Positions 9,137-43,475 of a DNA stretch of 48,512 nt are shown one piece after another; position 1 is the stretch's first letter; each line of letters starts with the position of its first letter. Where the stretch lies: assembly GCA_031973355.1 (NCBI GenBank), contig DALYDF010000001.1:20341-68852 (forward strand), given 5' to 3'. Made by a program: the position numbers and the translations under genes. The stretch comes from Candidatus Magasanikiibacteriota bacterium (GTDB lineage: Bacteria > Patescibacteriota > Patescibacteriia > Magasanikbacterales > UBA922). Under the pieces are notes generated by a model that was not told the DNA's origin, made no database searches, and saw only the letters and a program-made list of their open reading frames with translations.

Positions 9137-9141
9137 AAATA

Positions 9142-11397
9142 CTATTGATCTGATTGCAGGGCCGATGGACTTGCCTCTTTAACTTTTTGAAGGCAGGTTT
9201 TTAAATTTGGTTGTAAAGTATTTGGTTGTAAGCCAAATACACAACCAGTATCAGTGTCCGCATCGGCGGTAACCTTAACACAATTTTTATTAATTTCATC
9301 ACTACCATTTACACTATCAGTAAATTCGCACTTCAGATTTGGGTTATTTACTCCTGGTTCATTTACTGGACCACGACCCGGATACATACAATTTTGGTTG
9401 TCGCCTTTAACTGAACTGGAGACAAAGGTAAAATAATATAAATCTAACCCACCTGGACCAAATTCTCGCGGGTGCTGAATTTGCGCAAAAGTAGTTTTAT
9501 TTTCTGGAATTTCTCCCATTTGGAAATAATACGGAAAATCTTCCAATGGAACTTTATCTGCCCCTAATACATTTTGTGGATATTCAATAATTCCGGCACT
9601 GTTTGGAATGGTATTATACCACATTGCCTTACTGAAATAAATCTCCACAACTTCATTTCCTTTGACCCCTTCTGCCTCTACGTTAGGCTTAACTTGAGTG
9701 ATGTACGGAATCTCCCGGTCAATTTCATTTTTAACTTTAAAATTCCACAAATAATTGTCTGGATTGCTTTCTAATGGACCAATGGTTTTAATACTACCCG
9801 CAGGCAGTGGTGGTTTGTGAATCCAGGCCGAACCAGCCTCTCCACCTTTAGCCAAAACTCCATCTGCTTGATTATTTGGACCATTATCCAAGGCATTATC
9901 CGCCATATCCATTACCCCAGTATTTGGTTGAGACACAAAATTATTATCAGCGGGATTTTGTAAAAAGGCGGTCCGTACTAAGGTTGAGTAATTTTCCGTA
10001 CACACCGTATCGGTTGGTGCACAGGTGGTTGGCAAACAATACATTTTTTCACCACAACTATTTTGCCCACACTCTTCACTCGGCACAAATTCTATGGTGC
10101 GGTACCCATTAGAAATTCGCCATTCACCGGTAATATTTGGGTTATTGAAAATAATATTACTAAAATTACTGGCTGGTCCAGACACCCCTTGGGTGACCGA
10201 CGGATCAACCGGCTCATTAAAAGTAATTTGGATAATTTTATTACGCGCCATCACTTCACCTGCTTGTGGACGAGTAGACACAACTGACGGCGGAGTAAGA
10301 TCGACAGTGGTGCTGGCTTCAAAATTCCAACTATAAAATTTACTAATAAATTGTTGAGGGAAAATATCTGTACCGTCTAACCGTTTAATCCCGAAGGTAT
10401 TTTGGGTGCCACCCATTAATTTAACGGTGTACCAGGTATTAGCAGAATCACTACCTAAATATTGTAATGGTTTAAAGGTAAACACCGTGGCTTTTTTCTC
10501 GGCGTCATACACCGCAATCGCGGCGGCAGTAGACAATGTTTTTTGGGTACTCGTTGCCTGACTTTTTGGGAAAATTTGAATAGTATCAGTTCGTAACAAA
10601 TCACATTCAGTTTCTAAATTAAGACCTGGTGTACCATCAAAATCTAAACAATCACCATAGTACGGTAATGGCTGCCCATTGGTTGGACCGCTCGTAGACA
10701 AGGCACACACCTCACCAACATTAGTGTCAGGAATTCGCACTGGTATAGAACTACCATCTTTGGGCCAGCAAGTTTTATTAGTATTACTAATTAAACTACT
10801 TGGTAATATTGGCTCAGCAAACGTAACGGCGATTTTAGTATTACGAGCCACATTTACCTGGTTTGGGCGCGGATAGTGATCTTTAATTACTGACCCTAAA
10901 CCACCACTACCGATGTATGAAGCAAAAAATGGTTGTGGACCACCGTCATTTTGTCCATTATTTCCTTGGCCACCAAAAACATCATTAAGTGATTTGAAAA
11001 TAAATTGCACAATTGCAAAGGTGGACATAATAATTACCAGGCCCACCACGGCATTGGTTAACACTTTTTTTCCTTGTAATACCTTTTCTTCATTACCGGC
11101 CGAAGTCATGATCAAAAAACCACCATACAAAACTAAACCAAAAGCAATAATTCCCAACAAACCTAAGATAACGTTAATAATTCGGCCAGCCACGGTCCGA
11201 ATATCATCATTACCTAAAATAATCGTATCTTGAATTGGCTGAAGACCTAAAACATCTTGATTATCAGCTTGCGCGAGCACAGATACTGGGTTTAAAACCA
11301 GTGTAAAAAAAACAAAAATCATTGCCATTAATTTGACAACGATTTTTTCGTGAATTTTCTTAGCCAGAATCCGAGGAAGCATGAACCCGGGACTCAA
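9142..11397 (-). CDS. Large secreted/membrane-anchored protein (751 aa) with T4SS-pilin-like N-terminal module and Ig-like (SbsA/Big_5-type) domains
   Basis: ORF track. The hydrophobic N-terminus and the segment IINVILGLLGIIAFGLVLYGGFLIMTSAGNEEKVLQGKKVLTNAVVGLVIIMSTFAIVQF are paralogous to the N-terminus of the downstream giant ORF. Motifs 'VTFAEPILPSS' and 'ITFNEPVDPS' are typical of Big_5-like Ig domains. The start codon is uncertain (M1/M6/M24/M26). Confidence 0.8.
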   Translation of the reverse strand: MSPGFMLPRILAKKIHEKIVVKLMAMIFVFFTLVLNPVSVLAQADNQDVLGLQPIQDTIILGNDDIRTVAGRIINVILGLLGIIAFGLVLYGGFLIMTSAGNEEKVLQGKKVLTNAVVGLVIIMSTFAIVQFIFKSLNDVFGGQGNNGQNDGGPQPFFASYIGSGGLGSVIKDHYPRPNQVNVARNTKIAVTFAEPILPSSLISNTNKTCWPKDGSSIPVRIPDTNVGEVCALSTSGPTNGQPLPYYGDCLDFDGTPGLNLETECDLLRTDTIQIFPKSQATSTQKTLSTAAAIAVYDAEKKATVFTFKPLQYLGSDSANTWYTVKLMGGTQNTFGIKRLDGTDIFPQQFISKFYSWNFEASTTVDLTPPSVVSTRPQAGEVMARNKIIQITFNEPVDPSVTQGVSGPASNFSNIIFNNPNITGEWRISNGYRTIEFVPSEECGQNSCGEKMYCLPTTCAPTDTVCTENYSTLVRTAFLQNPADNNFVSQPNTGVMDMADNALDNGPNNQADGVLAKGGEAGSAWIHKPPLPAGSIKTIGPLESNPDNYLWNFKVKNEIDREIPYITQVKPNVEAEGVKGNEVVEIYFSKAMWYNTIPNSAGIIEYPQNVLGADKVPLEDFPYYFQMGEIPENKTTFAQIQHPREFGPGGLDLYYFTFVSSSVKGDNQNCMYPGRGPVNEPGVNNPNLKCEFTDSVNGSDEINKNCVKVTADADTDTGCVFGLQPNTLQPNLKTCLQKVKEASPSALQSDQ

Positions 11398-14339: not shown

Positions 14340-16919
14340 TTAACGAACCATCATTAAATCATCAATTCCTTCACTAATTGGGGTAGACCCGTAGTCAATG
14401 TCCACTTTGTAAATCAAATCTGGAGATTGGAATCCAAAATAAACAATACTCGATTCAGAAACAGTCCGTTTGGCTGTAGTTATCACTTTCCCAAAAGGGC
14501 CATACACGGTGATGTTTGCTTCTACTTTTTGACCATATAAATTTGCTGGCCCAACCAAGTAAAAGCCCATAGCCTTAACCGGAGTATTAAAGCCTAGATA
14601 CAACGGATCATTAGAACTATTTTTTGGAGAAGTAGCATTATTACTAATGGAATAAGCACCAGACGAAGTTTTGGCACCACCACGATTATAATCATTTACA
14701 TAAATCGCTTTACCGTTGTTTGACCAAATTGTTACTCCGTACAAAGAAACATATTTAGTAATCACTTCACCAACAGTATCTTCAAAATCAACTGTCTTAG
14801 GTTGTAATGCTTTAAGATCAGTGAGGGAAATTTCACCTGTTGTGGTGATTGTTGGGTTTGGTGGCGTTACTACTATTGGAGCTTTGAACAAAAAGTAACG
14901 ATAATCTGACCATGCGCCTTTCACATATTCATTTGTCGCGCTATCAAGGAAAACAGGGCGAGCGCGCAAACGATATGATTTACCATCAGCAAAAGGTCCG
15001 ATCGTGGTATTTACATAGCCATTTTCACTTTGGGATAAATTTATCTGACTCGTATTACTCCAATTCCCAGCTTGGCAATCAAAACAATCTACTGTTAATT
15101 CATAATGTTTTGAATTTGGAACTGTGGTAAATTTAACCGATACCGTTGTTTCATTATTTACAAACACCTGATTAGCACTTGGCATCACCACGCTTGGCGC
15201 TGTGCTTAAGTAGGGGTTTACAGTTGCCTTAGCTGGAATCTTGATGTGAATCGCAATTACATCATCAACTTCCACAGGCATATTCGGCACGCGTGAAACA
15301 CCATCATTGTTTCGCACATAAGCCAAGACAGTTACATACTTACCACGATAATAATCCGTTACGTTAAACGTAGCACCATTACTAAAAGCAGAGAAACTAA
15401 GATTTGAAACTAAATTTTTAGCCAAATTTTCATCAAAATTACTGGAACCTGTATTGGAATTTACCCAAATATAACCATACGTGTAATTTGCTGAAGGAGC
15501 CTTAACTGAACGATTAACCCGCAAGGTGAATTGATTGATACCACTTGGAATATCAATTAGTTGTTTAGCGGCATAACCTTTTAAGCGCAGGTATCCTGAA
15601 TTGGCATATCCAAGCAATTCATTATTTGTGTTATACAAACTGAGCGTATCAATAATATGAGAACTATCAGGAACCACCGTGGTATTTTTACCTGGCACAT
15701 ACACACGCATAACCGCAATATCATCAACTTCAGTAGCCATGCCTGGTACCGATGAAATACCATCATTATTACGCACAAAAGCGTACACCATCAACCAACG
15801 ATCTCCGCTATCACCATACAATTCATCAGTAATATCATATCGAGTCGCTTGAGGAGAACTACTGAAAGTTAAATTAGAGGTAATTTCACTAGTAAGTGCC
15901 TTATTAAATTCTGGTTTTTCTTTCTTCATGTCGACAGCAAAAGAATAGGAAAAATTTCCTGAACTTTTTGTGGTTATTGCATAACGCAAACCACTTTGAC
16001 CTTTTGGCAAAGCCACTTCATCTGGATACCATGGAAAAGATCCATCAGATCCATAACTAATGTCAGTTTTAGCATTTACATTTCCTGTTTGAGGGTTAGA
16101 AACACTAAACAATGAAATCAAATCAGTTCCAGAAACACCAGGCGTGATTGGATTAACTGGAGACACAGGAGCAACGGGCACCTCAGGCACGGCACCTACA
16201 CCACCTAATTGGGTTGGATCAGCCAAAATTTCTGCTACAGTAGTAGTCTCAGTACTAAGTGGTACATTTTCCAGCATAGACTGTCTAATACCCTGCACAT
16301 CTTTATTCAAAAAAGTAGGTATAGAACCAAGAACTTTTTTCAACTTACCCTCAGATACGAAATACACTTGAGGATTATCTTCAATAACAACTAACTGTCC
16401 ATTAACTGATTTAATATTTTCAACATCTGAACCAATTTTTAAATTAGAATCAAAGGCATCAGATAATAAACGAATTTTAGTTGGCCAATTATTTCCAAAT
16501 AAAACTACAGCAGTACTTTCATTTGTAATACGGTGTTTAGTATTATTTGGACCAACCGCATAAACTGTTGGAGAAACAGCTGTTTTAACTAATCGTGAAC
16601 CTGGTCGATAATTTACGCCACCACCAGTTGGATATTCATCCACACAAATCGGATCAATAGTAACAATTCCAGAATAATCACTATACCAAGTACTATATAC
16701 TTCACTATTAGGAAAATACATTCGTTTGTGATCTTTGTTGACGATATACACCGCCGGGTAATTCGCAACCTTAAAACGAGTACCGGCACTTAATTCTGCA
16801 CAATTAGTGGCCTGAACTAAAGATGGTACCCAAACCGACAAACTCAAACTAGACACCAATACCCCTCCCACAGTGACTGCAGAAAAAAATTGACGAGTTT
16901 TTTTAAAAAAAACACTCAT
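14340..16919 (-). CDS. Secreted hypothetical protein (859 aa) with internally duplicated beta-rich module
   Basis: ORF track. Signal peptide: MSVFFKKTRQFFSAVTVGGVLVSSLSLSVWVPSLVQA. Two paralogous segments: YAFVRNNDGISSVPGMATEVDDIAVMRVYVPGK and AYVRNNDGVSRVPNMPVEVDDVIAIHIKIPAK. Confidence 0.8.
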   Translation of the reverse strand: MSVFFKKTRQFFSAVTVGGVLVSSLSLSVWVPSLVQATNCAELSAGTRFKVANYPAVYIVNKDHKRMYFPNSEVYSTWYSDYSGIVTIDPICVDEYPTGGGVNYRPGSRLVKTAVSPTVYAVGPNNTKHRITNESTAVVLFGNNWPTKIRLLSDAFDSNLKIGSDVENIKSVNGQLVVIEDNPQVYFVSEGKLKKVLGSIPTFLNKDVQGIRQSMLENVPLSTETTTVAEILADPTQLGGVGAVPEVPVAPVSPVNPITPGVSGTDLISLFSVSNPQTGNVNAKTDISYGSDGSFPWYPDEVALPKGQSGLRYAITTKSSGNFSYSFAVDMKKEKPEFNKALTSEITSNLTFSSSPQATRYDITDELYGDSGDRWLMVYAFVRNNDGISSVPGMATEVDDIAVMRVYVPGKNTTVVPDSSHIIDTLSLYNTNNELLGYANSGYLRLKGYAAKQLIDIPSGINQFTLRVNRSVKAPSANYTYGYIWVNSNTGSSNFDENLAKNLVSNLSFSAFSNGATFNVTDYYRGKYVTVLAYVRNNDGVSRVPNMPVEVDDVIAIHIKIPAKATVNPYLSTAPSVVMPSANQVFVNNETTVSVKFTTVPNSKHYELTVDCFDCQAGNWSNTSQINLSQSENGYVNTTIGPFADGKSYRLRARPVFLDSATNEYVKGAWSDYRYFLFKAPIVVTPPNPTITTTGEISLTDLKALQPKTVDFEDTVGEVITKYVSLYGVTIWSNNGKAIYVNDYNRGGAKTSSGAYSISNNATSPKNSSNDPLYLGFNTPVKAMGFYLVGPANLYGQKVEANITVYGPFGKVITTAKRTVSESSIVYFGFQSPDLIYKVDIDYGSTPISEGIDDLMMVR

Positions 16920-33359: not shown

Positions 33360-34075
33360 TTGTTGTACCTGTCCCGGGGTTAAAAGTAAGGCTAATATTT
33401 GGCTTTAGTTTTGACCCCGCAATGGACAGCGGGACAAAAGGGGGTTGCCCATGGCGACTCGGGTGCTTATGGCGATCTTCGCCATGATGTTGCTCACGGC
33501 TTGCAATCAGGCCGTTCCCTCTTCCGCTTCGGAAGGCACCGTTTCAGCCAACGGTGATGTGTCCAACTCGGGGAAGGCTGATTCCCCGAACAACATGGGG
33601 TCTGAAGACTCCTCCGATGGCAGCGTCTCCGACGGTGTCGACGGAGAATCCGACGGCACCACTGACCCCACTGACGGCACCGTTGCCGCTGATGGGACTG
33701 ACCTTCCGCCCCTCGACCCCTGCGTCAACGTCCAATTCCTGCCCGAGTACTACACACTCAGCGGCAGCCGAGTCACCTTCGACCTCGAACCGTTTGGCAG
33801 CACCTGCCAGATCACCGTTCGTGGCGGTGGTGGATCGTTCGACGAACGAACGATTTTGGACATCGACTTCCCGCTCTTTGATACACGCGATGAAGTAGTA
33901 GACTTCGAGATCGTGTGTCTCGAGCACCGTGCTGATGGTGTCCCGAAGACTGTGCGCATGCGGCTCTACTACGCGGACACCCCTGAGATGTACAGCGAAC
34001 TCATGATCTACGAGCCCACCCCTTCGGGTTGATGGCTCGTGACAACCTGTCGCCTGCCTCACCCATCCCTAAAAC
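33360..34075. other. Second compositional island (about 58-59% G+C in sampled blocks) in an AT-rich spacer
   Basis: Hand counts: 58/100 G+C in 33451-33550 and 59/100 in 33551-33650, against 18/60 in 33241-33300. GGTGAGGCA (33325-33333) is the reverse complement of TGCCTCACC (34055-34063). Confidence 0.7.
33451..34032 (+). CDS. Putative lipoprotein (193 aa from ATG) with Asp/Ser/Gly-rich linker, encoded by the G+C-rich island
   Basis: ORF track, whose TTG at 33445 is read as M. The ATG at 33451 is preceded by AAAGGGGG (SD) at 6 nt. Signal peptide with lipobox: MATRVLMAIFAMMLLTAC. G/C-ending codons dominate in this frame. The four other overlapping ORFs in the track are typical high-GC shadows. 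Confidence 0.7.
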   Translation: MATRVLMAIFAMMLLTACNQAVPSSASEGTVSANGDVSNSGKADSPNNMGSEDSSDGSVSDGVDGESDGTTDPTDGTVAADGTDLPPLDPCVNVQFLPEYYTLSGSRVTFDLEPFGSTCQITVRGGGGSFDERTILDIDFPLFDTRDEVVDFEIVCLEHRADGVPKTVRMRLYYADTPEMYSELMIYEPTPSG

Positions 34076-34102
34076 TTATTTGTTTAAGTAATTTTTAGAG
34101 AA

Positions 34103-34130
34103 TAAAAAATGACCTTAAAGGTCATTTTTT
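34103..34130. terminator. Bidirectional terminator shared by the lipoprotein gene (+) and the giant gene (-)
   Basis: AAAAAATGACC-TTAAA-GGTCATTTTTT. Confidence 0.65.
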
Positions 34131-34149
34131 ATTTATTACTATTTCTTAG

Positions 34150-37100
34150 TTATGGGGTGACTACGATATATCCTTTATAAGGTATAAACGCATCTTTATA
34201 TTTAGGATTATTTTGCTGCTCATTACATTGCTGACCGAAACCAGCACCTTTTTTATTTTCATAACACCCGTCAGTCAAATCAGTTTTACTATCTTTATTC
34301 CAGTCAGTACATTTCCCAGTACACCAACCCCAGTTATCCATCACCTGCACCATTGGTTTAAAGATACACACAAACTTAGTATTATCTTTATTATAGTTAA
34401 GACTCTTTAAATACGCCCAAATTTTTGCGCCTTCGCCCGCTGGCAATGGGTTGCCACCACTTATATTAGAATTTTGTTCAAAATCATAAACAAAACTTTC
34501 TTTATTGGTTTTATCCAACTCACCACACGAATAACTATGGGTAAATTCAAAGTAATCTGGCGTACAAGCCCGAGCCGCATTACCAAAAGCAAACCCATCT
34601 ACAGTACAAGTGCCACCGTTTGGACAATCTTGGTTTGATTTACAGGTTAATTGTGGATTGGTGCTACATTGTTTGAGTGCCGTGCTTTGAGCTGATTCTT
34701 CTGATGGTGACATACAATACGGCTTGCGATTTTTGTAATCACCGTACCGACTTTCATTGGTTACCGTAGAATTATCCCCCCAATCAATCATAATTCGTTT
34801 GATAGGCATGCGGTTATGATCTGCAAAGGCAAAGAAATTAGTTATTGCTGTTAAACTATTTTCTTTTACAATCACACCATAATTGCCATCCTGCTTACTG
34901 TCTTCGTCAGGAGTAGCATTTTGACGGTTAACCGTAAAAGCATTCATTTCTTTTGGTGCACAGTTTTGCGCATTATTTTTTGTACCGGTGAAGCAACGGC
35001 TGACATCCAAAGAATAAATTTGCGGCACAATTAAATTATCACGGTATTCGCCTGAGACATCTTCCCCATCTTGGTCTATGTCCCAATTACCATTAACCGC
35101 ATTATTGAACGAAGTTTGTTTATAGCTTTTTACAAAAATATTAGTAAGTAATCTACTGCCCGTCATTGGTGGAAGATTACTTGCCTGTGTCACACTCGCC
35201 GGTTCCACATCATCATAATCATTCTTTAATTGTCCTTGGTATTCAATCGATGAATACTTACAACGAGAAATAAAATAGTTTGTGATTGTCCCAAAATATG
35301 GCTCACCGTATATCCGTCCATAATTAATGGTACCATTAGTATCCAAGAAATCTAAATTATTTTTACAACTGGTAAACATACCCTGCTCATCAGGTTGCAA
35401 GAAAATATATTGCCGTAATCTATTTTCCCAACCCGAACCAAACTGCATATACAGGCCAGCGTCTAGTAAAGTGGAACCATATGGTCGATATATCTTACCC
35501 AAAGGATATGGACGTGGGAAATTAGTTTCCTTTGTATAGAACCAGGTCCGGTTAGTCCAGGCCTTGTTTTTATTTATGTCTTGCGTTGCATCATATACTT
35601 GAGTAAATTGAACGCAACGTGGTAATAATTCAATTATTTCTGCCAAATAAATTGATACAAATTTATTATTTTCATGATTATCAAGTATCGCACCCATATT
35701 GACTCCATTCTGAGCAAAAATACTTGCACGTTTCACATCACCAATTTTTTTACCATCAGCACCATACACCGTATAGATATTAACCGCTGACCGGTGATTA
35801 GGATCTTTAGCATACCATTCATCTATTTTAGCCAAAGAAACAACGGTTGAGATATCGTTAATCGGATCAGCGCTCATGAAATCAGTAATCAAATTTTTGG
35901 AAAAATCTTTAAAATTTGGAATATCCAGACCGCTATCTGAATCCATAAACGCAAACGAACCGATTAATACTTTGCCCGTATCCGGACCAGACTCAACCGT
36001 TACTCTAAAACCAATCGTTGCTAAATTAAATTGACCTGCATTTACATACACACTTCCTGTAGTGTCGGCCGTTGTGTTATTTTCAATAATTTTACTATCC
36101 AAGGCATACGAATAGCTCATCGTACCAGCACTTTCCTTTGTTTTAACTGACTTACGTAAAAATTCATTATTAATGGTCATCATGTATGGGTTTGCCCCTG
36201 GTGATAAAATTGGGCCAAAGTGCTGCACACCAATTTCTGGTTCCAAAATAGTTAGCGGCAATCTGAAATTTGCCCCGTATGGGCCAGTTCCAAATTGGGT
36301 TGACTGACTTACTAATTCTGCCAAATAATCAAAACCGTATTTCTTTGGGCTTAAATAATAATGGTATGGTAGCGCCGAAGTAAAAGTAACCACAGCATTT
36401 GGTACATTAAATCCTTTTTCTGCACTGTCAGGCGTTCCAAAACTTAAATAAACTTTAGGGTGGTTATTAAACACATACGCATCACCCCGCCAGGCAAATG
36501 CCTGCATAGTAGAGTACTGTAATTTTCTAAATTCATCGTCAGACACTTCACGCGCATTGGTGGCTGGTTTGTGATTAATTTTATACCCCGCCAAAGCATA
36601 GGCATTATCCCAATTTAACCACTTATTGAATGTGTAAGGCACTACAGTAAGATTATCTCTTGCCGCACTCGCATTAAAACCATTAGCAGGAACAATTGAA
36701 ATAAGTTGGTCTTTGTCATAAGCCCCCGTCCAATTAGCTGAAGCTTCGGTACAATAGACCTGTCCACCAAACGCGGTTTGGTTATTGGCGGTTTTAGTGG
36801 CCCCATCAATAGCTGGATAGTACCCAGCTTCACTAAACCGGTTAAAGCTGTCGTAGTTAGTGGCGGCGGTATCCACTGGTAACCAGGTTAAGCAAGCATA
36901 TTCATTGCGTGCCCGGTTAATTGGGCGACTGTAATCGTACTCCAAACAGAATCCACGCAAACCAATTTGTGTTTGAATATCTTTAATTTGACTACACACA
37001 CCAGCCGAAATTACGCTACCATCTTTGGTAACCGTACAATCCAAATCTGCCGCACAGGTTTGACCATCACGATCACCACCCGAACAGACCCCGGCCGGAT

Positions 37101-40100
37101 AGCGTTGATCAGGAAATTGATAATAATCAACGGTTCCACTCTTATAGGTAACTTTTTGATATTCACACGAACATTCCCCACTTTGACAGATATTTGCCCC
37201 TTCTAAACCGGACAATTTAGCCGTATATTCATACCGCGTTGGTCCGCCAGTATAGGCTGATTTAATTGTGTTAGTTTGGGTTCCAATTGTTGAAGCAAAT
37301 GGCGCAGTTTTTTCTGGATAGGCTTTACAAATACCACCCTCCAAAAATTTAGCCATGGAGTCAGCATTTTTACCCTCACTACCAGGGAAAGCACCTGAGA
37401 TTGGTAAAATACATTTTTTCTGATAACAACGACCAGCGTTACTTGGTCCACATGCCGCCCATTCAGTAGCACAAGCATTGGCTGATGCTTGGTTAGTAGT
37501 GTTCACATATCGATAACCCAAATACGCAATTGGGTTATCTTCAAACACCAAAGAAACCATGTTACTAACTTGAAATTTATTAAACAATGAGTAGCCTGAA
37601 TAATCTTCCCCAAACCAAGAAACATCACGCTTAGTGTAAGCCGCTTCGTTTAACAAAGCCACTGATTCGGCAGTATCTTCACTCCAGTCTTCACAAGTCT
37701 CACCGGTTATAGTCGAGCGGCAGGCTTTGTATTGGGTACAAATGGTGCGCTCTTTACCATTTTGGTCAGTCACGCGAGTTTTATCTTTACATGATAACCA
37801 CTCACTACACGAACGATCACGGGAAACTTTTAACAAAATATTCGCATCAAATGGTTTAACCGTGGTATTTGGTTCAGTTGGATTATATTTAGCTTGTGTG
37901 GTATTTAAACCATCACTTACTTTGTATGTTTCCAAGGCATTAAAAATCTTATTTGGATTATTGGTAACATTAAATAAGGCACAGCCATTTTTTAAATTTA
38001 CTTTTCCATCACAATCCCCAGCCGTATTTTGTAAGCGTTGATCTAAAATTACATTATATGGTTTACCTCCCGGATATTCTGGTGAAGTATCAATTGGGTC
38101 AACAATTTCCATACATTGGTTATATTGATCTGGACAACGACCAACTGAACCATTGTACTGTGGTGATTTATTAGACCAAATTCCATACGAACCGCCAGCA
38201 ACGGCAAAATTACTATAACATGGTAGGGCACCAATATTTTGACAGGTGCCGGCATTTACCACTGCACAATCAGCGTCTTGTTTACACGACAACGCCGCAT
38301 TGCCAGAACAACTTCCCATTCCTTCTTGGAACCACCCACTAACGTTAGTCTGACCAACCTTAATTGCCTCTTTGTATGAACAAATTGGCGCACCGGCAGT
38401 TACTGGATCTTTAAAGTATGAAATAGTATTACCTGATTTAAATTCACCACACCCAACTTGATCACTGGAGCAGAGTATCTGACTATAATTATCAGGATTA
38501 TTTTTAACAAAGGTTTCAGAATAGATATATCCGGCAGATGGATTACCTGGCACTTTTAATTCTTGTAAAGCAATTTTTTGACAGCCTAAATATTGCGCAG
38601 AATCACTTGGGTTAGCTTGGTTACAGGCATAGGTTTTGCGATTAGCCAAATACATTGGTTCAGCCGCCGCCGTATCAGCCGGCACCACAATAGTTGAAGC
38701 CGCAAAGTACCCGCCATCTTTTAACCATTCCAAGGTATTTTCCGGAGCAGTTGCGTTAGTTGGCGTAATGTTAGCTGGTAACACGGTCTTTTTTACATAA
38801 CAGAATGTTTCACCGGCAGGAATCTGACAAGTACCTAAATCAGTGGTGTTATTTACCACAATTTTACACTCTTGATTTTGTGTACCCTTACATTTCAAGT
38901 TATACGCTGTTGCCTGAATTTCATTGATGGTATTTTGGGTATCTACAAACGCAGTACAGCCGACTGCTTCTGGACGACAGAGCCGATCAAACCCAGTTGC
39001 CGGTACTTTGGCTCCTAAACTATCGGTGTAGGCGCGACAACCCAAGGCACCGCCTGGTAAGCCATCTTTAGGGTCAGCATCACAAGCCAGTGGGGCATCA
39101 GCCAAAACTACTGATCCGTCAGGAGCGGTTACGGCTTGTTTCCAAGAATTTTTAATTAACGGAATTTTACCAGTAATTCGAATGACTTTAAAATTATCTA
39201 TAAAATAATTGTAAGGTGCCGGTGTACCATTCACTGCGGTACGAGTAAAGCGCAGAGCAATTTTATCTGTGCCTACTCCAGTAAACTGTACCGGACCCAA
39301 ACGATACGCTTGCCAGGTAGAACTAATTGGCACTTTTACACTTTGACCCGTACTTGGACTAACGGTAAAGCTGCCGGCACTTTGACCAGTGGTTACATTA
39401 TAAAATTCGATTTCTAAATTAACTTGCGCACCCCGACTCCAAAATTCGAGTTCGTATGACTTATTTGCTTCCAAGCTATTATCAACAAAATTGTAATCAG
39501 TCACAGCAGCAGAAATTTCTAACGAATTTTGACTACCAATTAATGATTCTGGTCTGATATTTGTGCCCGCTCCCCACCCTTGCTTGGCAGTTACTAACCC
39601 ATCAACTCCATTACCTGGTTCAAATTTTTGATCAACAAAAGCCAGAGTATTATTGGCATCTTTACCAGTATATGCCCGACAATTATTGGCCGCTGCCGGA
39701 CAACTTTTATCATCACCAGCTACCGAAGTAGTCCAGTACACACAAGCACCATTTTGGTAAATACCACCGTTGTAACATAATTCACAACTATTATTTGCCC
39801 ACCGACCACCTTTGGCCGTACAAGCACTTTCTTGACCCAAACTAGTTAAGTACGTATCTTGGCGCAAGAAACTGTCAGTTTTTCGTAATGGATGACAAGC
39901 GGCCGATACATTCACTACTTTATCAATCATTCGGTAAAATACCGCTTCAGTGTCATCATACAAGGCCACACAACCTGGTTTAGCCGTATTAATTCCGTAT
40001 GGATTCGTTACTGCAGCATCATAGGCAGTTTTATTACATTCAGCAGACAAGGTTTGCATTACTGCCGGATCAAAATCAGCGTAGGCTGGTGAACCAGCGG

Positions 40101-42741
40101 GGAATGAAGCACTTAATGTTCCACCGCCGATGGCCGCAATAAAGCTGGCCGCATACCGATCACTTTGATTATCACTGACTGGTCGCAGGGTGTGGGTACG
40201 TAACACATATCCTTCATTAGCTTTTCCTTCCCACGAATAAAAAGTTTTTTGATTGGTCGCAGTCGGTCGTTCACAATACGCAATATCTGAATAATATTCT
40301 AAGGTTTCACCGCCGCTACTAGCCGCATCAATATTAGTGAATTCACTACAACCTTCGTGTACCAAAGAACATTTTTTGGCTGATTCAGTTGGAGGAATAA
40401 AATGAAGAGGGAAAACTTCTGGTTCAAAGGCACCACGGTCTTCTGGTTGCTCTTGTTTAAATGTATCATATCCCACACAACTAGCCGCACACCGATTGGT
40501 GCCAACAATTCCGTAGACTTTGTCAGTACTGTTATCAGGAGTGTACGCTTCACAACCAACGTCATTTTTGGTACACGCTGGGGCAAACGGAGCACATAAT
40601 TGCGCCTCTGGTCTCTTACTCAGTGAAGTAATTTCACCAGCGGTTTGTGGCCAGCGAGTCGCTCCACTTACCCCTGGATTGGCTACTAAATAACAAGCCG
40701 AGAATAAACTACTTGGTGCTTTTTTAAGATAAGTTGTTTCCCCTCGATTACCATCACTATCTACCTTTACTAACGCACTACAACCTTCGGCTGATGATGG
40801 ACAGGTTTCCTTCTTAATTGATTCATTAAAATAAATAGTTGGTTTTTTACCCAAAGCTTCTTGATTATAATCAGTTAACAGTGGATCTGTTTCCCATCCA
40901 CCACCAGGCAATGGTTCAACACTATATTTCTGACAACCAACTGACTGGGCATTACATTGACCGGTTTGCAAGGTTCTCGATAAATACGAGACTTTTGTAT
41001 TATCACGATTATTAGTATAAGTAGAGCACGTGTTAAATTGTTGCGGACAACTTGAACCACCAAAACGCCAGGTATTTTTTTCGCGTAAACAATATCCGTA
41101 ACCACCAATACACCGACCGCGATCATCTTCAAGTAAACAAGTAGACACATCCACACATTCTAAACGGCGCTCAGCATTATCACTAGCTAACAAACGAGGT
41201 CCAAACACCTTAGCTTCACAGCGAGGTTCTGGTAACCGTATAATCCACTCTGGATCAATTAAGTGACAGAATGGGTGTTGGGCATCAGACTGACCACTCG
41301 CATTACAATCATAATACCCTTTAACCACTGCTTCTAACGTATAATTTTGAATACTATCCGGATCAACTTTACTGGCCGCAATTTCAAAACCAAGGGGTAA
41401 CACGCGGGCTTTGCGCAATTTCTGAATATTGGAAAAACAATAATATCCATTATTAAAACATTTTTTCGGATCACTATTAAATTCATGCTGTGGTGGAATC
41501 AATGACCACTTGGCATGTAAAAAATTATTTTTTGGATCCATCGCTTCACGGATAGTTAACGGCTTACCCGTACTCGCTTGTTTCACTGCTAACACTAATC
41601 CGGGATCAGCCACACAGTTATTTAAACCTGGATTTTCCACATTAGAACAATCACTAAATTCTTCCATTAACGGATAGGTAGTTAGCTGTTGAGTAGGGAC
41701 AGTGGTAAACAAGAAACCAAACGCGTTTTGAGCGGCCGCCCGATTATTATTAATTACCCCAGCATATTCGCTAAATATCGACGCTGCGCCAGGTGCCGAG
41801 GCACTATCATCGGCTTCAAAAAAACCATTAAATACTTTGTCTGTTAATTGAGATACAAAGGTGTTTAAAAATACCCCTGCTGCGGCCGGAATTACCTGCC
41901 ACAATCCTGCACCATAAATACCCGCCACCTGTTGTGAAGTTAATTGTTGTTGTTTGCTTCCGGTTAAGGCTTTAGTTTCTTCGGCAATTACCTGTGATGG
42001 GGTTTTAATTTTGCCCGAAATTAAATCGGTTACAGCTTTAAAACCACCACCTTCTAAACGGTCAGTACTGGCCCCTGCTTGAGCGTTAGCATTAATCCGA
42101 TCAACCTTACTAACCATCCCTAAAGCCACCCCCATGTCTGATTGATCTACTTTTAATGACTTAGCAAACATTTGGGAAGCAAAGTCACCAGCTTTTTCAT
42201 CAAAATTTTCAAAACCATTTTCCCAACTAGTTCTAAAATCATTCCAGCGACAGGTAGGTTGTGGACCACCAGCCAAACTCGGGTCTTCGTACATTTTACG
42301 CAAACTCACTTGCAAGAAAATTTGAAATTTAATATCTGGAGGTTTACACAAATTTAAACCAAATGGAGCACCAAATTGCTCAATTGCCGTGGCCGCACTA
42401 TCCAAAGCTACATTTTTAAAATAGGCCTCACCACCTTCTTGAAAAACTAATGGTTTTTGACCAACCGCTGAACTAGCCAACCAACTCGCACTATCATATG
42501 CCAATTTTTGCATGAAATAGGAAAAACCATTTACCAAAGAACCTAAGGAACTGGCTAACAAACCTTCTAACACGGCGTCATTACTCCATTTTCCGCTCAA
42601 AGCGGCCACCACATCTGGTGCACCAACAATCGCTTTGGTTTGAGTCGGTACCAAAGCCACCAAAAGCTGAATACTAATGATCATTGAGAGACCAAGTCCC
42701 ACCAACCATTTCTTTGCTTTTTTTGACGGCGAGATATGCAT
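34150..42741 (-). CDS. Giant Cys-rich secreted/anchored surface protein (2863 aa)
   Basis: ORF track. N-terminal signal/anchor: KKWLVGLGLSMIISIQLLVALVPTQTKA. Cysteines are scattered along the entire length, and an internal jelly-roll/CBM-like segment is present. The ATG at 42741 is 1 nt after the stop of the upstream gene. Confidence 0.9.
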   Translation of the reverse strand: MHISPSKKAKKWLVGLGLSMIISIQLLVALVPTQTKAIVGAPDVVAALSGKWSNDAVLEGLLASSLGSLVNGFSYFMQKLAYDSASWLASSAVGQKPLVFQEGGEAYFKNVALDSAATAIEQFGAPFGLNLCKPPDIKFQIFLQVSLRKMYEDPSLAGGPQPTCRWNDFRTSWENGFENFDEKAGDFASQMFAKSLKVDQSDMGVALGMVSKVDRINANAQAGASTDRLEGGGFKAVTDLISGKIKTPSQVIAEETKALTGSKQQQLTSQQVAGIYGAGLWQVIPAAAGVFLNTFVSQLTDKVFNGFFEADDSASAPGAASIFSEYAGVINNNRAAAQNAFGFLFTTVPTQQLTTYPLMEEFSDCSNVENPGLNNCVADPGLVLAVKQASTGKPLTIREAMDPKNNFLHAKWSLIPPQHEFNSDPKKCFNNGYYCFSNIQKLRKARVLPLGFEIAASKVDPDSIQNYTLEAVVKGYYDCNASGQSDAQHPFCHLIDPEWIIRLPEPRCEAKVFGPRLLASDNAERRLECVDVSTCLLEDDRGRCIGGYGYCLREKNTWRFGGSSCPQQFNTCSTYTNNRDNTKVSYLSRTLQTGQCNAQSVGCQKYSVEPLPGGGWETDPLLTDYNQEALGKKPTIYFNESIKKETCPSSAEGCSALVKVDSDGNRGETTYLKKAPSSLFSACYLVANPGVSGATRWPQTAGEITSLSKRPEAQLCAPFAPACTKNDVGCEAYTPDNSTDKVYGIVGTNRCAASCVGYDTFKQEQPEDRGAFEPEVFPLHFIPPTESAKKCSLVHEGCSEFTNIDAASSGGETLEYYSDIAYCERPTATNQKTFYSWEGKANEGYVLRTHTLRPVSDNQSDRYAASFIAAIGGGTLSASFPAGSPAYADFDPAVMQTLSAECNKTAYDAAVTNPYGINTAKPGCVALYDDTEAVFYRMIDKVVNVSAACHPLRKTDSFLRQDTYLTSLGQESACTAKGGRWANNSCELCYNGGIYQNGACVYWTTSVAGDDKSCPAAANNCRAYTGKDANNTLAFVDQKFEPGNGVDGLVTAKQGWGAGTNIRPESLIGSQNSLEISAAVTDYNFVDNSLEANKSYELEFWSRGAQVNLEIEFYNVTTGQSAGSFTVSPSTGQSVKVPISSTWQAYRLGPVQFTGVGTDKIALRFTRTAVNGTPAPYNYFIDNFKVIRITGKIPLIKNSWKQAVTAPDGSVVLADAPLACDADPKDGLPGGALGCRAYTDSLGAKVPATGFDRLCRPEAVGCTAFVDTQNTINEIQATAYNLKCKGTQNQECKIVVNNTTDLGTCQIPAGETFCYVKKTVLPANITPTNATAPENTLEWLKDGGYFAASTIVVPADTAAAEPMYLANRKTYACNQANPSDSAQYLGCQKIALQELKVPGNPSAGYIYSETFVKNNPDNYSQILCSSDQVGCGEFKSGNTISYFKDPVTAGAPICSYKEAIKVGQTNVSGWFQEGMGSCSGNAALSCKQDADCAVVNAGTCQNIGALPCYSNFAVAGGSYGIWSNKSPQYNGSVGRCPDQYNQCMEIVDPIDTSPEYPGGKPYNVILDQRLQNTAGDCDGKVNLKNGCALFNVTNNPNKIFNALETYKVSDGLNTTQAKYNPTEPNTTVKPFDANILLKVSRDRSCSEWLSCKDKTRVTDQNGKERTICTQYKACRSTITGETCEDWSEDTAESVALLNEAAYTKRDVSWFGEDYSGYSLFNKFQVSNMVSLVFEDNPIAYLGYRYVNTTNQASANACATEWAACGPSNAGRCYQKKCILPISGAFPGSEGKNADSMAKFLEGGICKAYPEKTAPFASTIGTQTNTIKSAYTGGPTRYEYTAKLSGLEGANICQSGECSCEYQKVTYKSGTVDYYQFPDQRYPAGVCSGGDRDGQTCAADLDCTVTKDGSVISAGVCSQIKDIQTQIGLRGFCLEYDYSRPINRARNEYACLTWLPVDTAATNYDSFNRFSEAGYYPAIDGATKTANNQTAFGGQVYCTEASANWTGAYDKDQLISIVPANGFNASAARDNLTVVPYTFNKWLNWDNAYALAGYKINHKPATNAREVSDDEFRKLQYSTMQAFAWRGDAYVFNNHPKVYLSFGTPDSAEKGFNVPNAVVTFTSALPYHYYLSPKKYGFDYLAELVSQSTQFGTGPYGANFRLPLTILEPEIGVQHFGPILSPGANPYMMTINNEFLRKSVKTKESAGTMSYSYALDSKIIENNTTADTTGSVYVNAGQFNLATIGFRVTVESGPDTGKVLIGSFAFMDSDSGLDIPNFKDFSKNLITDFMSADPINDISTVVSLAKIDEWYAKDPNHRSAVNIYTVYGADGKKIGDVKRASIFAQNGVNMGAILDNHENNKFVSIYLAEIIELLPRCVQFTQVYDATQDINKNKAWTNRTWFYTKETNFPRPYPLGKIYRPYGSTLLDAGLYMQFGSGWENRLRQYIFLQPDEQGMFTSCKNNLDFLDTNGTINYGRIYGEPYFGTITNYFISRCKYSSIEYQGQLKNDYDDVEPASVTQASNLPPMTGSRLLTNIFVKSYKQTSFNNAVNGNWDIDQDGEDVSGEYRDNLIVPQIYSLDVSRCFTGTKNNAQNCAPKEMNAFTVNRQNATPDEDSKQDGNYGVIVKENSLTAITNFFAFADHNRMPIKRIMIDWGDNSTVTNESRYGDYKNRKPYCMSPSEESAQSTALKQCSTNPQLTCKSNQDCPNGGTCTVDGFAFGNAARACTPDYFEFTHSYSCGELDKTNKESFVYDFEQNSNISGGNPLPAGEGAKIWAYLKSLNYNKDNTKFVCIFKPMVQVMDNWGWCTGKCTDWNKDSKTDLTDGCYENKKGAGFGQQCNEQQNNPKYKDAFIPYKGYIVVTP

Positions 42742-42742
42742 A

Positions 42743-43423
42743 TTAGCGAATGGTGGTAGTTACGGTTGAAGTGGTGGTCGCACTCAAAGCAGATTCAGGA
42801 TTGTTTAATAATTTTTGGGCCATTTCTTGCAAAGTCTTATCATCGATTTTACTCAACACCTCTGGATCAATTTTACCAGTACTTAAAATTACATTGCGTA
42901 ATTGTTCAGGATTATTAATTAATGCTTCTAATTCAGCGGTCGCATTTGGGTCAGCCGCACTTGCTTGGCCACTAAAATTAAGAATGTCTGAAGGGGTTGC
43001 GGTTTGATTTAATAATGGTGAAGATAGACTAGAAGTAGCGGTTACCCCTGCGCTATCTGCCCCTGCACAAACCATGTCAGTTGGACACAATGGATCAGTT
43101 CCTTTTTCAATTTCAATTTTATCCATCACCCCATCGGAGTCACTGTCAGGTAAATACGGACTCGTTTCGTATTGTTGTAATTCTTCAAAATCAGTTAACC
43201 CATCTCGATCCGTATCAATATTTTTTAATCGCTCTTCATCATTATTTGTTAAAGAAGCAAAGGGATTAGTATCAGCTTTCTTAACTACGAATCGTCCGTA
43301 GATAGTATTTCGCAATTGCAATCCTCCTAAACCGACCGTAAGTATAGCAAAAATAAGCATAAAGATAAAACCAATCTTTTGCTCACGAGAAAATCCGGAG
43401 AGACTGCGTTGATTCGGCAACAT
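42743..43423 (-). CDS. Membrane-anchored protein with thrombospondin-type-3-like Ca-binding repeats
   Basis: The ATG at 43423 (MLPNQRSLSGFSREQKIGFIFMLIFAILTVGLGGL) is preferred, because the tracked start at 43456 is a TTG. Repeats: DTDRDGLTDFEE and DSDSDGVMDKIE. Confidence 0.75.
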   Translation of the reverse strand: MLPNQRSLSGFSREQKIGFIFMLIFAILTVGLGGLQLRNTIYGRFVVKKADTNPFASLTNNDEERLKNIDTDRDGLTDFEELQQYETSPYLPDSDSDGVMDKIEIEKGTDPLCPTDMVCAGADSAGVTATSSLSSPLLNQTATPSDILNFSGQASAADPNATAELEALINNPEQLRNVILSTGKIDPEVLSKIDDKTLQEMAQKLLNNPESALSATTTSTVTTTIR

Positions 43424-43446: not shown

Positions 43447-43475
43447 AGTATACCAAAAAAGAGCCGTAGGCTCAA
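43447..43475 (-). promoter_or_regulatory. Extended -10 promoter for the TSP3-protein/giant-gene pair, embedded in the rsmA terminator
   Basis: Minus strand: TTGAGC (43475-43470), 17 nt ending in TGg, TATACT (43452-43447). Confidence 0.55.

What the first reader, a model, noticed from the sequence alone, without database searches (positions are those of the whole stretch)
34150..43423. Second 'small membrane partner + giant' module: TSP3-repeat protein translationally coupled to a 2863-aa cysteine-rich surface protein
A 226-aa protein has one TM helix and thrombospondin-type-3-like Ca-binding loops (DTDRDGLTDFEE, DSDSDGVMDKIE). It ends 1 nt before the ATG of the 2863-aa ORF. The pair has its own extended -10 promoter and a terminator at 34103-34130. 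The giant has an N-terminal anchor and cysteines spread over its whole length. Many occur in C-x(2-12)-C spacings, with motifs such as CSGECSCEY and CTGKCTDW. This implies a heavily disulfide-bonded extracellular protein. Apart from one CBM-like segment I recognise no domains. The arrangement mirrors the 751-aa/giant pair at 1-11397 (5-nt gap). Smaller-anchored-protein-then-giant therefore looks like a reusable two-gene design in this genome.
Basis: partly seen in the sequence, partly recalled or inferred. Interest (0 to 1): 0.65.

Follow-up and report, generated by a model that had tools for sequence, protein, structure and literature searches.

The report
Conserved giant disulfide-rich exoprotein with partner
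A two-gene operon found in at least 392 species genomes, mostly of the ultra-small Magasanikbacteria, encodes a 309-kDa secreted protein with about 96 conserved cysteines, one sugar-binding domain and a fast-evolving module, always preceded by a small calcium-binding membrane protein; it is probably a cell-surface attachment device, but no one has described it.

Summary
A 226-aa single-pass membrane protein with two TSP3-type Ca-binding loops ends 1 nt before a 2863-aa ORF.

The giant belongs to a large uncharacterised family. Relatives occur in 392 GTDB species genomes, one locus per assembly among the 80 kept, mostly Ca. Magasanikbacteria. A profile of residues 38-1040 matches 1,555 clusters at 50% identity. 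A partner homologue lies directly upstream in 77 of 77 testable loci.

Of its 96 cysteines, 91 are kept in at least 90% of 114 homologues. Residues 1-2000 are almost free of indels. Residues 2001-2560 diverge much faster: 37% identity against 89% for the N-terminal domain in the closest relative.

The only recognisable fold is a CBM4/9/16-like jelly roll at about 1031-1190.

- The "N-terminal anchor" is a conserved cleavable signal peptide ([AVTS]-x-A before residue 38).
- The "mirror" pair at 1-11397 is an unrelated tandem of VirB2-like pilin-domain genes, so there is no reusable two-gene design.

Best reading: a secreted, disulfide-stapled, glycan-binding surface protein held or assembled by its Ca-binding partner. 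The function is inferred, not shown. It is a new variant of patescibacterial giant surface proteins.

The parts
43447..43475 (-). Promoter-like site TTGAGC-17 nt-TGgTATACT (extended -10). It overlaps a small hairpin at 43461-43473 that follows ksgA.
   Evidence: Consensus scan, and sequence. The position fits the ATG at 43423 as the start and excludes the TTG at 43456. Not tested experimentally.
42743..43423 (-). Partner gene: a 226-aa acidic single-pass membrane protein (24 kDa; ectodomain pI about 4).
   Evidence: A homologue lies directly upstream of the giant in 77 of 77 testable loci.
43316..43372 (-). Partner transmembrane helix (aa about 18-36) with conserved flanks EQKxGF and LQxRNTIYxPF.
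   Evidence: Family alignment of 72 partners.
43088..43228 (-). Two TSP3/EF-hand-like Ca-binding loops (aa 70-81 and 93-104), ending just before the conserved Cys pair CPxxxxC (aa 113-119).
   Evidence: Pfam PF18884 above its cut-off. The consensus IDTDxDGLNDYEEL...LPDTDSDG..DK.EI..GTDPLCPEG..C is conserved family-wide.
42806..42916 (-). Partner C-terminal conserved motif of about 35 aa, DPxxLRxxLLxTGxxxxxxLxxIxDxxLxxM. It is duplicated in one relative (L063).
   Evidence: Function unknown. It is proposed here, by inference only, as a docking element.
34150..42741 (-). Giant gene: 2863 aa, with a mature protein of about 309 kDa and pI 5.15.
42631..42741 (-). Sec signal peptide (aa 1-37): a Lys-rich n-region, a 19-aa hydrophobic core, and a T-K-A cleavage site.
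   Evidence: The -3/-1 rule is conserved in 115/115 and 111/115 homologues.
41692..42630 (-). N-terminal Cys-poor domain (aa 38-350), predicted helical. It is the most conserved part between close relatives (89% to P0001).
   Evidence: The AF2 model has low confidence here, and there is no Pfam or PDB match.
39652..41691 (-). Cys-rich block I (aa 351-1030): 35 Cys, including six copies of the hairpin motif C-x5-[GNT]-C-x-x-[YFL] and the most conserved family motif YC[YF][SA]NIQKL.
   Evidence: The AF2 model is confident only for about aa 357-507, 677-737 and 797-1012, and Foldseek found no PDB match.
39172..39651 (-). CBM4/9/16-like beta-jelly-roll domain (aa about 1031-1190), free of cysteine.
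   Evidence: PF02018 hits 12 of 24 family members, best E 1.3e-5. Block-mean pLDDT runs about 70-95 over this domain. Foldseek matches CBM4-2, CBM16, CBM61 and a porphyran-binding CBM with E 1e-6 to 1e-4 and TM 0.5-0.65 over about 150 columns.
36742..39171 (-). Cys-rich block II (aa 1191-2000): 42 Cys, mostly beta-hairpin modules.
   Evidence: No PDB match beyond the CBM.
35062..36741 (-). Hypervariable, indel-rich, Cys-poor module (aa 2001-2560).
   Evidence: Occupancy and identity collapse here. Identity to the closest relative is 37%, against 67-89% elsewhere in the first 2000 residues.
34153..35061 (-). Conserved C-terminal Cys-rich domain (aa 2561-2863) with the motifs FFAFADxNRMPIxRVxVDWGDG and DNWGWC and the C-terminal end GxIIVxP.
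   Evidence: No Pfam or PDB match.
34100..34134 (.). Palindromic A/T-rich hairpin with T-runs on both strands, 16 nt after the giant's stop. A likely bidirectional intrinsic terminator.

Best explanation
Shown:
- The locus is a two-gene operon found, one locus per assembly among the 80 loci kept, in genomes labelled mostly Ca. Magasanikbacteria (Patescibacteria).
- Gene 1 encodes a small acidic single-pass membrane protein whose extracytoplasmic part carries two TSP3/EF-hand-type Ca2+-binding loops.
- Gene 2 starts 1 nt later. It encodes a Sec-exported giant whose signal peptide has a conserved signal-peptidase-I site.
- The giant carries one CBM4/9-like jelly roll and a distal module of about 560 aa that evolves several times faster than the rest.

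Inferred:
- After cleavage the 309-kDa mature protein has no membrane anchor of its own.
- It folds outside the cell into an elongated chain of small beta-rich modules stapled by about 48 disulfides.
- The giant is retained or assembled at the cell surface by Ca2+-dependent docking to the partner, produced in step with it through translational coupling.
- The conserved disulfide-rich part acts as a rigid stalk. It presents a glycan-binding domain and a variable recognition module to a host cell wall or another polysaccharide surface.

In short, this would be a core attachment or recognition device of these episymbiotic ultra-small bacteria.
For: Operon and coupling:
- The gap is 1 nt.
- A partner homologue is directly upstream in 77 of 77 testable loci.
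- The gap is 30 nt or less, or the genes overlap, in 64 of 72 measured loci.
- The synteny Sua5-DUF4015-KsgA-partner-giant is conserved, with KsgA found in 68 loci.

Family size and constraint:
- 165 hits, and the complete proteins among those listed run 2,500-3,350 aa at 31-71% identity.
- Relatives occur in 392 GTDB species genomes, and the 80 loci kept come from 80 different assemblies.
- 1,555 clusters at 50% identity match a profile of aa 38-1040.
- Substitutions against an independent assembly are 27 synonymous and 4 non-synonymous.

Export:
- The [AVTS]-x-A site is conserved.
- There is a single hydrophobic segment.
- A signal peptidase I gene lies in the window.

Disulfides:
- 91 of 96 Cys are kept in at least 90% of 114 homologues, although mean identity is only about 40%.
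- Cysteine counts are even in 97 of 115 sequences, p 3e-14.
- C-x6-C hairpins are enriched.

Glycan binding.

Variable module.

Ca-binding partner.

Context in the literature: very large patescibacterial proteins are preferentially surface-targeted and are thought to mediate host adhesion (PMC13059738; PMC11809585).
Against: - No direct evidence shows that partner and giant bind each other. No complex model could be run.
- Partner topology (C-terminus outside) is inferred from the Ca-binding loops and the Cys pair. Positive charges flank both sides of the TM helix.
- No Dsb- or VKOR-type oxidoreductase lies in the window, and the rest of the genome was not available.
- The CBM call rests on fold and on family members. 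The window protein itself does not reach Pfam significance.
- About 85% of the giant has no recognisable fold, and about a third of the two modelled tiles has pLDDT below 50.
- Full-length conservation, an almost indel-free 2000 aa and housekeeping synteny are unusual for an adhesin. They fit a core structural role equally well.
Confidence: 0.5

Rival explanations
1. The giant is a core envelope scaffold, for example an S-layer-like or cell-wall-associated lattice protein. The Ca-binding partner is its membrane tether, and host recognition is secondary or absent.
For: - One locus per assembly among the 80 loci kept, embedded among housekeeping genes.
- 2000 aa almost free of indels, under strong purifying selection.
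- Ca2+ dependence is common in S-layer assembly (established knowledge).
- The CBM could bind the cell's own wall glycan.
Against: - No SLH or other known S-layer anchoring domain.
- Known S-layer proteins are rarely cysteine-rich (own knowledge).
- A 560-aa hypervariable module points to an external, changing ligand.
- No abundance data.
Confidence: 0.22
2. The giant is released from the cell as a toxin or lytic effector that acts on host cells. The jelly roll is its receptor-binding domain, as in Vip3 or binary-toxin B components. The partner acts as a secretion or maturation helper.
For: - The signal peptide is cleavable and there is no anchor.
- Foldseek hits include Vip3 and CDTb and phage tail-fibre proteins.
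- The Cys-poor helical N-terminal domain gave weak ClyA- and YaxAB-like matches.
Against: - The toxin matches are local to the CBM-like jelly roll (TM about 0.1, rmsd about 20 A).
- The helical matches are non-significant (E at least 0.59) and come from a low-confidence model.
- No protease, glycosidase or pore-forming domain was detected.
- Toxins are rarely universal, single-locus and syntenic.
Confidence: 0.1
3. One reading: 'small anchored protein followed by a giant' is a reusable modular two-gene design, used at least twice in this genome.
For: Both pairs are co-directional with gaps of 1-5 nt, and both giants have about 3.3% Cys.
Against: - No homology between the giants or between the small proteins.
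- Pair 1 is a tandem of T4SS_pilin-domain proteins, a known VirB2-like pilin array type.
- The 76 partner homologues found are all small proteins of 145-280 aa.
- Every partner homologue found in the 83 loci lies next to this giant family.
Confidence: 0.05
4. The cysteines are metal ligands (Zn or Fe-S), or the ORF is an over-called or non-functional reading frame.
For: - Cys-rich motifs such as C-x2-C-x-C occur.
- Many Patescibacteria are thought to live in anoxic habitats, where disulfide formation needs explaining (own knowledge).
Against: - A conserved Sec signal peptide.
- Even cysteine counts.
- No His or Cys cluster patterns typical of metal sites.
- The ORF is intact in more than 100 genomes, and substitutions are 27 synonymous to 4 non-synonymous.
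Confidence: 0.03

Closest known systems
Giant surface-targeted (adhesin-like) proteins of Patescibacteria/CPR (for example those discussed in PMC11809585 and PMC13059738)
   Same: Very large, Sec-targeted, extracytoplasmic, and encoded in an ultra-small episymbiont-type genome. Presumed to mediate contact with a host surface.
   Different: The published examples are built from known adhesion domains (FhaB, FN3 and others). In P. danicum they have no full-length homologues, which suggests rapid evolution. This protein is conserved end to end in hundreds of species and has no known adhesion domain, no DNA or protein repeats, about 96 conserved cysteines and a dedicated partner gene.
CBM4 / CBM9 / CBM16 / CBM22-type carbohydrate-binding jelly rolls (Pfam PF02018 CBM_4_9)
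   Same: Residues about 1031-1190 model confidently as a beta-jelly roll. They superpose on CBM4-2, CBM16, CBM61 and a porphyran-binding CBM. PF02018 hits half of the family members tested.
   Different: The window protein itself does not reach Pfam significance. Ligand-binding residues were not examined. The module is not attached to any glycoside hydrolase.
Bacterial TSP3-repeat Ca-binding proteins (Pfam PF18884; for example Myxococcus CglD and MtsD) and eukaryotic thrombospondin type-3 repeats
   Same: The partner has two D-x-D-x-D-G-x-x-D-x-x-E loops that pass the PF18884 cut-off. CglD and MtsD are surface adhesion or cohesion proteins that use the same repeat (named by NCBIfam).
   Different: Scores against the CglD and MtsD models are 22-23 bits, against cut-offs of 400-800. 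Only the repeat is shared. The partner is a 226-aa single-pass protein with no VWA or other domain.
Cohesin-dockerin anchoring of cellulosomal proteins (mechanistic analogy only)
   Same: A pair of Ca-binding loop-helix segments on one protein could dock a large secreted CBM-bearing protein to the cell surface.
   Different: No Pfam dockerin or cohesin hit at E up to 1. The interaction is untested.
VirB2-like (T4SS_pilin) gene arrays of Patescibacteria (PMC12102498)
   Same: This is what the 'mirror' pair at 1-11397 resembles: tandem genes that each begin with a PF18895 pilin domain.
   Different: Neither the giant at 34150-42741 nor its partner has a pilin domain, so the finding is not part of that system.

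Membership tests
Bacterial TSP3 repeat proteins (Pfam PF18884) | At least one repeat scoring above the Pfam gathering threshold. | tested here: met
   The partner scores 26.8 bits against a cut-off of 25, E 4.5e-6, with two stretches. PF18884 is also precomputed on many partner homologues.
CBM_4_9 carbohydrate-binding modules (Pfam PF02018) | Sequence match to PF02018. | tested here: inconclusive
   The window protein has no hit at E up to 1. Twelve of 24 family members hit, best E 1.3e-5. Four of the 120 listed homologues carry a precomputed PF02018 hit.
CBM_4_9 carbohydrate-binding modules (Pfam PF02018) | Beta-jelly-roll fold superposable on solved CBM4/16/22-type modules. | tested here: met
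   AF2 block-mean pLDDT is about 70-95 for aa 1031-1190. Foldseek gives E 2.5e-6 to 1e-4 and target TM 0.5-0.65.
CBM_4_9 carbohydrate-binding modules (Pfam PF02018) | Demonstrated glycan binding. | not testable with these tools
   Needs glycan arrays or ITC with the recombinant domain.
VirB2-like pilin-domain giant proteins (T4SS_pilin PF18895), the family of the 'mirror' pair | An N-terminal T4SS_pilin or TrbC domain. | tested here: not met
   PF18895 hits both proteins at 1-11397 and neither the giant nor its partner. BLASTP between the two giants gives E 0.92.
Sortase-anchored (LPXTG) surface proteins | A C-terminal LPXTG motif followed by a hydrophobic segment and a charged tail. | tested here: not met
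   No C-terminal LPXTG motif. The C-terminus is the conserved ...GxIIVxP, and there is no second hydrophobic segment.
RTX / T1SS giant adhesins (LapA/SiiE type) | GGxGxD nonapeptide repeats and a C-terminal T1SS signal, no Sec signal, and tandem Ig-like repeats. | tested here: not met
   No GGxGxD motif. A Sec signal peptide is present. No tandem repeats at DNA or protein level.
S-layer proteins with SLH anchoring | SLH or other known S-layer anchoring domains. | tested here: not met
   No such Pfam hit in the window proteins or in the tiles aa 38-2010 and 2560-2863 of family members.
Dockerin-cohesin systems | Pfam Dockerin_1 on one partner and Cohesin on the other. | tested here: not met
   Neither family appears at E up to 1. 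The resemblance is functional analogy only.
DGR-diversified surface proteins | A template/variable repeat pair and a reverse transcriptase nearby. | tested here: not met
   No DNA repeat of 40 nt or more involves the giant. No RT domain among the window ORFs scanned.

The most novel reading that the evidence does not exclude
The pair is the structural core of a previously unrecognised, lineage-defining extracellular organelle of Magasanikbacteria. A Ca2+-docked, roughly 48-disulfide 'matrix-like' stalk built from novel folds carries a glycan-binding domain and a rapidly diversifying recognition head that sets host specificity. This would imply that these Patescibacteria run a substantial extracytoplasmic oxidative-folding system that has not been described.
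Probability: 0.25. Interest if true: 0.8.

Novelty: new variant of a known kind. Interest (0 to 1): 0.58.

Why it matters
How ultra-small Patescibacteria recognise and hold on to their hosts is largely unknown. Most candidate adhesins evolve too fast to compare between genomes. This locus offers the opposite.

- It is a single, syntenic locus per assembly among the 80 kept, so it can be aligned across hundreds of species.
- It has a rigid conserved scaffold, one identifiable glycan-binding domain and one clearly delimited hypervariable module.
- That makes host-specificity hypotheses directly testable. One could correlate variable-module clades with co-occurring hosts, or express the CBM and the variable module.
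- It flags a need for disulfide-forming machinery in this lineage.
- It supplies about 2,400 residues of conserved sequence with no match in Pfam, NCBIfam or the PDB.

Tried and rejected
- **Pfam and NCBIfam on the giant.** No family was found. The only hit was a non-significant GldM_3rd match inside the CBM-like segment.
- **Per-member Pfam scans of three tiles.** Only CBM_4_9 recurs.
- **Profile searches against PDB sequences.** The whole family and the C-terminal domain both gave nothing, even at E 1-10.
- **AF2 of aa 38-1040 with 24 sequences.** Mean pLDDT was 53.8, and Foldseek against the PDB gave nothing below E 0.59. The F-BAR, ClyA and YaxAB-like rows come from low-confidence helices and were rejected.
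- **Deeper alignments for AF2.** A 42-row mixed alignment was used instead.
- **Foldseek hits to Vip3, CDTb and phage tail fibres.** These are local jelly-roll matches (TM about 0.1) and were not taken as homology to toxins or phage fibres.
- **Internal domain repeats.** hhalign of the two halves gives only 30% probability, reflecting the short C-x5-G-C motif. There are no DNA tandem repeats and no DGR-like repeats.
- **Homology between the two 'pairs'.** None.
- **Literature.** Six full-text searches, including locus tags of annotated homologues, found no description of this family.
- **My first motif description.** I first wrote the hairpin motif as C-x4-G-C. That was off by one, and the correct form is C-x5-[GNT]-C-x-x-[YFL].
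Full report
**1. What is in the sequence**

On the minus strand, an ORF of 226 aa (42743-43423, ATG) is followed after a single nucleotide (cgcTAAtATG) by an ORF of 2863 aa (34150-42741).

A sigma-70-like site with an extended -10 (TTGAGC-17-TGgTATACT, 43475-43447) precedes the small gene. A 16-pair A/T-rich palindromic hairpin (34100-34134) follows the giant's stop. Both are consensus matches in the right places. Region-wide, such matches are not more frequent than in shuffles, so they are plausible and not proven.

The small protein has four recognisable parts:
- One hydrophobic helix (aa about 18-36).
- Two Ca-binding loops (aa 70-81 and 93-104) that pass the Pfam TSP3_bac cut-off (26.8 bits against 25).
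- A Cys pair (C113 and C119).
- A conserved C-terminal motif of about 35 aa.

The giant has 96 cysteines.

The ORF is not an assembly artefact. An independent ENA contig is 99.5% identical over 8,212 nt with no indel. In the giant, 27 of its 31 substitutions are synonymous.

**2. The giant belongs to a large, tightly constrained, unnamed family**

A word-indexed search returned 165 relatives. Among the 120 listed, the complete proteins run 2,500-3,350 aa at 31-71% identity. Wherever a source names them, the name is 'hypothetical protein', mostly in Ca. Magasanikbacteria.

A scan of one genome per GTDB species found relatives in 392 genomes. The 80 loci kept come from 80 different assemblies, so the gene looks single-locus there. 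A profile of residues 38-1040 matches 1,555 clusters at 50% identity, 1,222 of them below 1e-30. All of the top 150 hits align from near their own N-terminus, and most are 2,500-3,300 aa long.

In an alignment of 114 full-length homologues:
- 91 of the 96 cysteines are kept in at least 90% of sequences.
- Residues 1-2000 have almost no indels.
- Residues 2001-2560 lose occupancy and identity.
- Residues 2561-2863 are conserved again.

Against the closest relative, identity is 89% in aa 38-350, 80% in 351-1030, 76% in 1031-1190 and 67% in 1191-2000. It falls to 37%, with 19% gaps, in 2001-2560. That region is a hypervariable module inside an otherwise rigid protein.

Cysteines cluster in three blocks: 35 in 351-1030, 42 in 1191-2000 and 14 in 2561-2863. 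They are nearly absent elsewhere.

Cysteine counts are even in 97 of 115 family members (p 3e-14). C-x6-C spacings occur 14 times, against 4.4+-2.0 in shuffles. Eight of them fit a recurring hairpin motif C-x5-[GNT]-C-x-x-[YFL]. Short spacings in general are no more frequent than the cysteine density predicts. These data support a disulfide-stapled extracytoplasmic protein.

**3. Export and anchoring**

The only strongly hydrophobic segment is aa 13-31. It is followed by a site that obeys the -3/-1 rule across the family. Position 35 is A, V, T or S in 115 of 115 sequences, and position 37 is Ala in 111 of 115. Ala37 is also invariant in the 29-sequence alignment.

This is a cleavable Sec signal peptide, not an anchor. 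A signal peptidase I gene lies in the window. The mature protein is about 309 kDa with pI 5.15. It has no LPXTG motif, no RTX repeats, no SLH domain and no second hydrophobic segment. Its extreme C-terminus (GxIIVxP) is conserved.

**4. Recognisable domains**

Pfam, NCBIfam and PDB-sequence profile searches find nothing for the giant as a whole or for its C-terminal domain.

Per-member Pfam scans show CBM_4_9 (PF02018) in 12 of 24 homologues for the tile 1030-2010 (best E 1.3e-5).

The AF2 model of that tile (42 rows, mean pLDDT 69) is mostly beta. Residues 1031-1190 form a confident jelly roll. Foldseek matches it to CBM4-2, CBM16, CBM61 and a porphyran-binding CBM, with E 1e-6 to 1e-4 and target TM 0.5-0.65. 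In the viral library it matches CBM-CenC-bearing phage tail-fibre proteins.

Matches to Vip3, CDTb and tail fibres are local to this domain. The rest of the tile has no structural neighbour.

The tile 38-1040 gave a weak model (pLDDT 53.8). It shows a low-confidence helical N-terminal domain and a few confident but unmatched segments.

There are no tandem or dispersed DNA repeats and only a marginal internal profile match. The protein is therefore not a repeat-expanded adhesin.

**5. The partner is co-inherited**

In 83 related loci, a partner homologue lies directly upstream on the same strand in all 77 that contain upstream DNA. E-values run from 1e-27 to 1e-85.

The stop-to-ATG distance is 1-30 nt in 61 of 72 measured loci. 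Three more overlap, two of them as ATGA.

KsgA precedes the partner in 68 loci. The block Sua5-(DUF4015)-KsgA-partner-giant recurs even where the giants are only 31% identical.

The partner's TM helix with its flanks, both Ca loops, the CPEGxxC pair and the C-terminal motif are conserved. The linker between them is not.

All 76 partner homologues found are small proteins of 145-280 aa. Only the TSP3 repeat is shared with CglD and MtsD of Myxococcus, at 22-23 bits against cut-offs of 400-800.

**6. The 'mirror' pair**

Both the 751-aa protein and the partial giant at 1-11397 begin with a T4SS_pilin (PF18895) domain followed by Big_5 domains. The two giants are unrelated (E 0.92).

Tandem VirB2-like pilin genes are a described feature of Patescibacteria (PMC12102498). 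The two pairs therefore share only close spacing and size asymmetry. 'Reusable two-gene design' is not supported.

**7. How it most likely works**

Shown:
- A conserved operon.
- Sec export through a conserved cleavage site.
- About 96 conserved cysteines with even counts.
- One CBM-like jelly roll.
- One hypervariable module.
- A Ca-loop-bearing membrane partner.

Inferred:
- The partner sits with its C-terminus outside, binds Ca2+ and docks the anchorless giant at the cell surface. The 1-nt junction keeps the two in step.
- The disulfide-rich 2000-aa part is a rigid stalk. The CBM-like domain and the variable module contact a polysaccharide-bearing target, most plausibly the host envelope.

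This fits the general view that very large patescibacterial proteins are surface-targeted adhesion factors (PMC13059738 and PMC11809585).

It also differs sharply from those examples, which use known adhesion domains and, in P. danicum, lack full-length homologues. I put about 0.5 on this reading. The main rival, at about 0.2, is a core envelope scaffold. The locus's wide presence, its synteny with housekeeping genes and its indel-free conservation fit that rival well. A released toxin or effector gets about 0.1.

**8. Comparison and novelty**

The locus is not a member of any named family beyond the partner's TSP3 repeat and a CBM4/9-type fold. It fails tested features of pilin-led giants, LPXTG proteins, RTX adhesins, SLH S-layer proteins, dockerin-cohesin systems and DGR targets (see the membership table).

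Six full-text literature searches found no description of it.

I rate it a new variant of a known kind, namely giant surface proteins of ultra-small episymbionts. Its unusual features are full-length conservation across hundreds of species, a dense conserved disulfide framework made of unmatched folds, a delimited hypervariable module and an obligate Ca-binding partner.

**9. Limits**

- No interaction test, expression data or whole-genome search for disulfide oxidoreductases was possible.
- Structure models cover 38-2010 only, and about a third of that is low-confidence.
- MAG labels in the public records are unreliable. Many loci are titled 'uncultured Gammaproteobacteria' although they share this synteny and family.

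Noticed in passing
window 33400-34070 (ORF 33445-34032, + strand): A GC-rich island of about 650 bp (56-63% GC against about 41% for the window) sits between the giant's terminator and aspS. It encodes a 195-aa protein that starts with a lipoprotein signal and lipobox (MATRVLMAIFAMMLLTAC). It has no Pfam family and no counterpart in 83 related loci. It may be a foreign insertion or a horizontal transfer.
   Followed up: partly
window 1-11397 (- strand): The 751-aa protein (9142-11397) and the partial giant of more than 3046 aa (2-9139) both begin with a T4SS_pilin (PF18895) domain followed by Big_5 Ig-like domains. The giant also has TIG. This looks like a VirB2-like pilin gene array of the kind reported for Patescibacteria (PMC12102498). 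The giant also has 3.25% Cys.
   Followed up: partly
window 14340-16919 (- strand): An 859-aa ORF next to the signal peptidase I gene has no Pfam or NCBIfam family. It contains an internal 63-nt direct repeat pair (15261-15323 and 15720-15782, 75% identical), which suggests an internally duplicated protein of unknown function.
   Followed up: no
window 43461-43473 and 43447-43475: The small G+C-rich hairpin plus T-run that follows ksgA overlaps the -35 and spacer of the partner's promoter-like site. Termination of ksgA transcription and initiation of the partner-giant operon would therefore share the same 30 nt.
   Followed up: no
related loci L004, L006, L008, L009, L012 and many others: Many public MAG records that carry this Magasanikbacteria-type locus and synteny are titled 'uncultured Gammaproteobacteria bacterium', and one is titled 'Candidatus Udaeobacter sp.'. 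These titles look like placeholder or wrong taxonomic labels.
   Followed up: no
locus L063 7081-7893 (partner homologue): In this relative the partner's C-terminal DPxxLRxxLLxTG...IDDxxLxxM motif is duplicated in tandem. This suggests it is an autonomous module of about 35 aa.
   Followed up: no
loci L002/L003/L049 and other loci of the shorter-giant subgroup (2,500-2,700 aa): The divergent subgroup with giants of about 2,550 aa (31-33% identity) keeps the partner and KsgA. In L002 and L003 an MFS transporter gene is inserted between DUF4015 and ksgA, and a different set of unannotated genes (111, 1046 and 337 aa) lies downstream.
   Followed up: no
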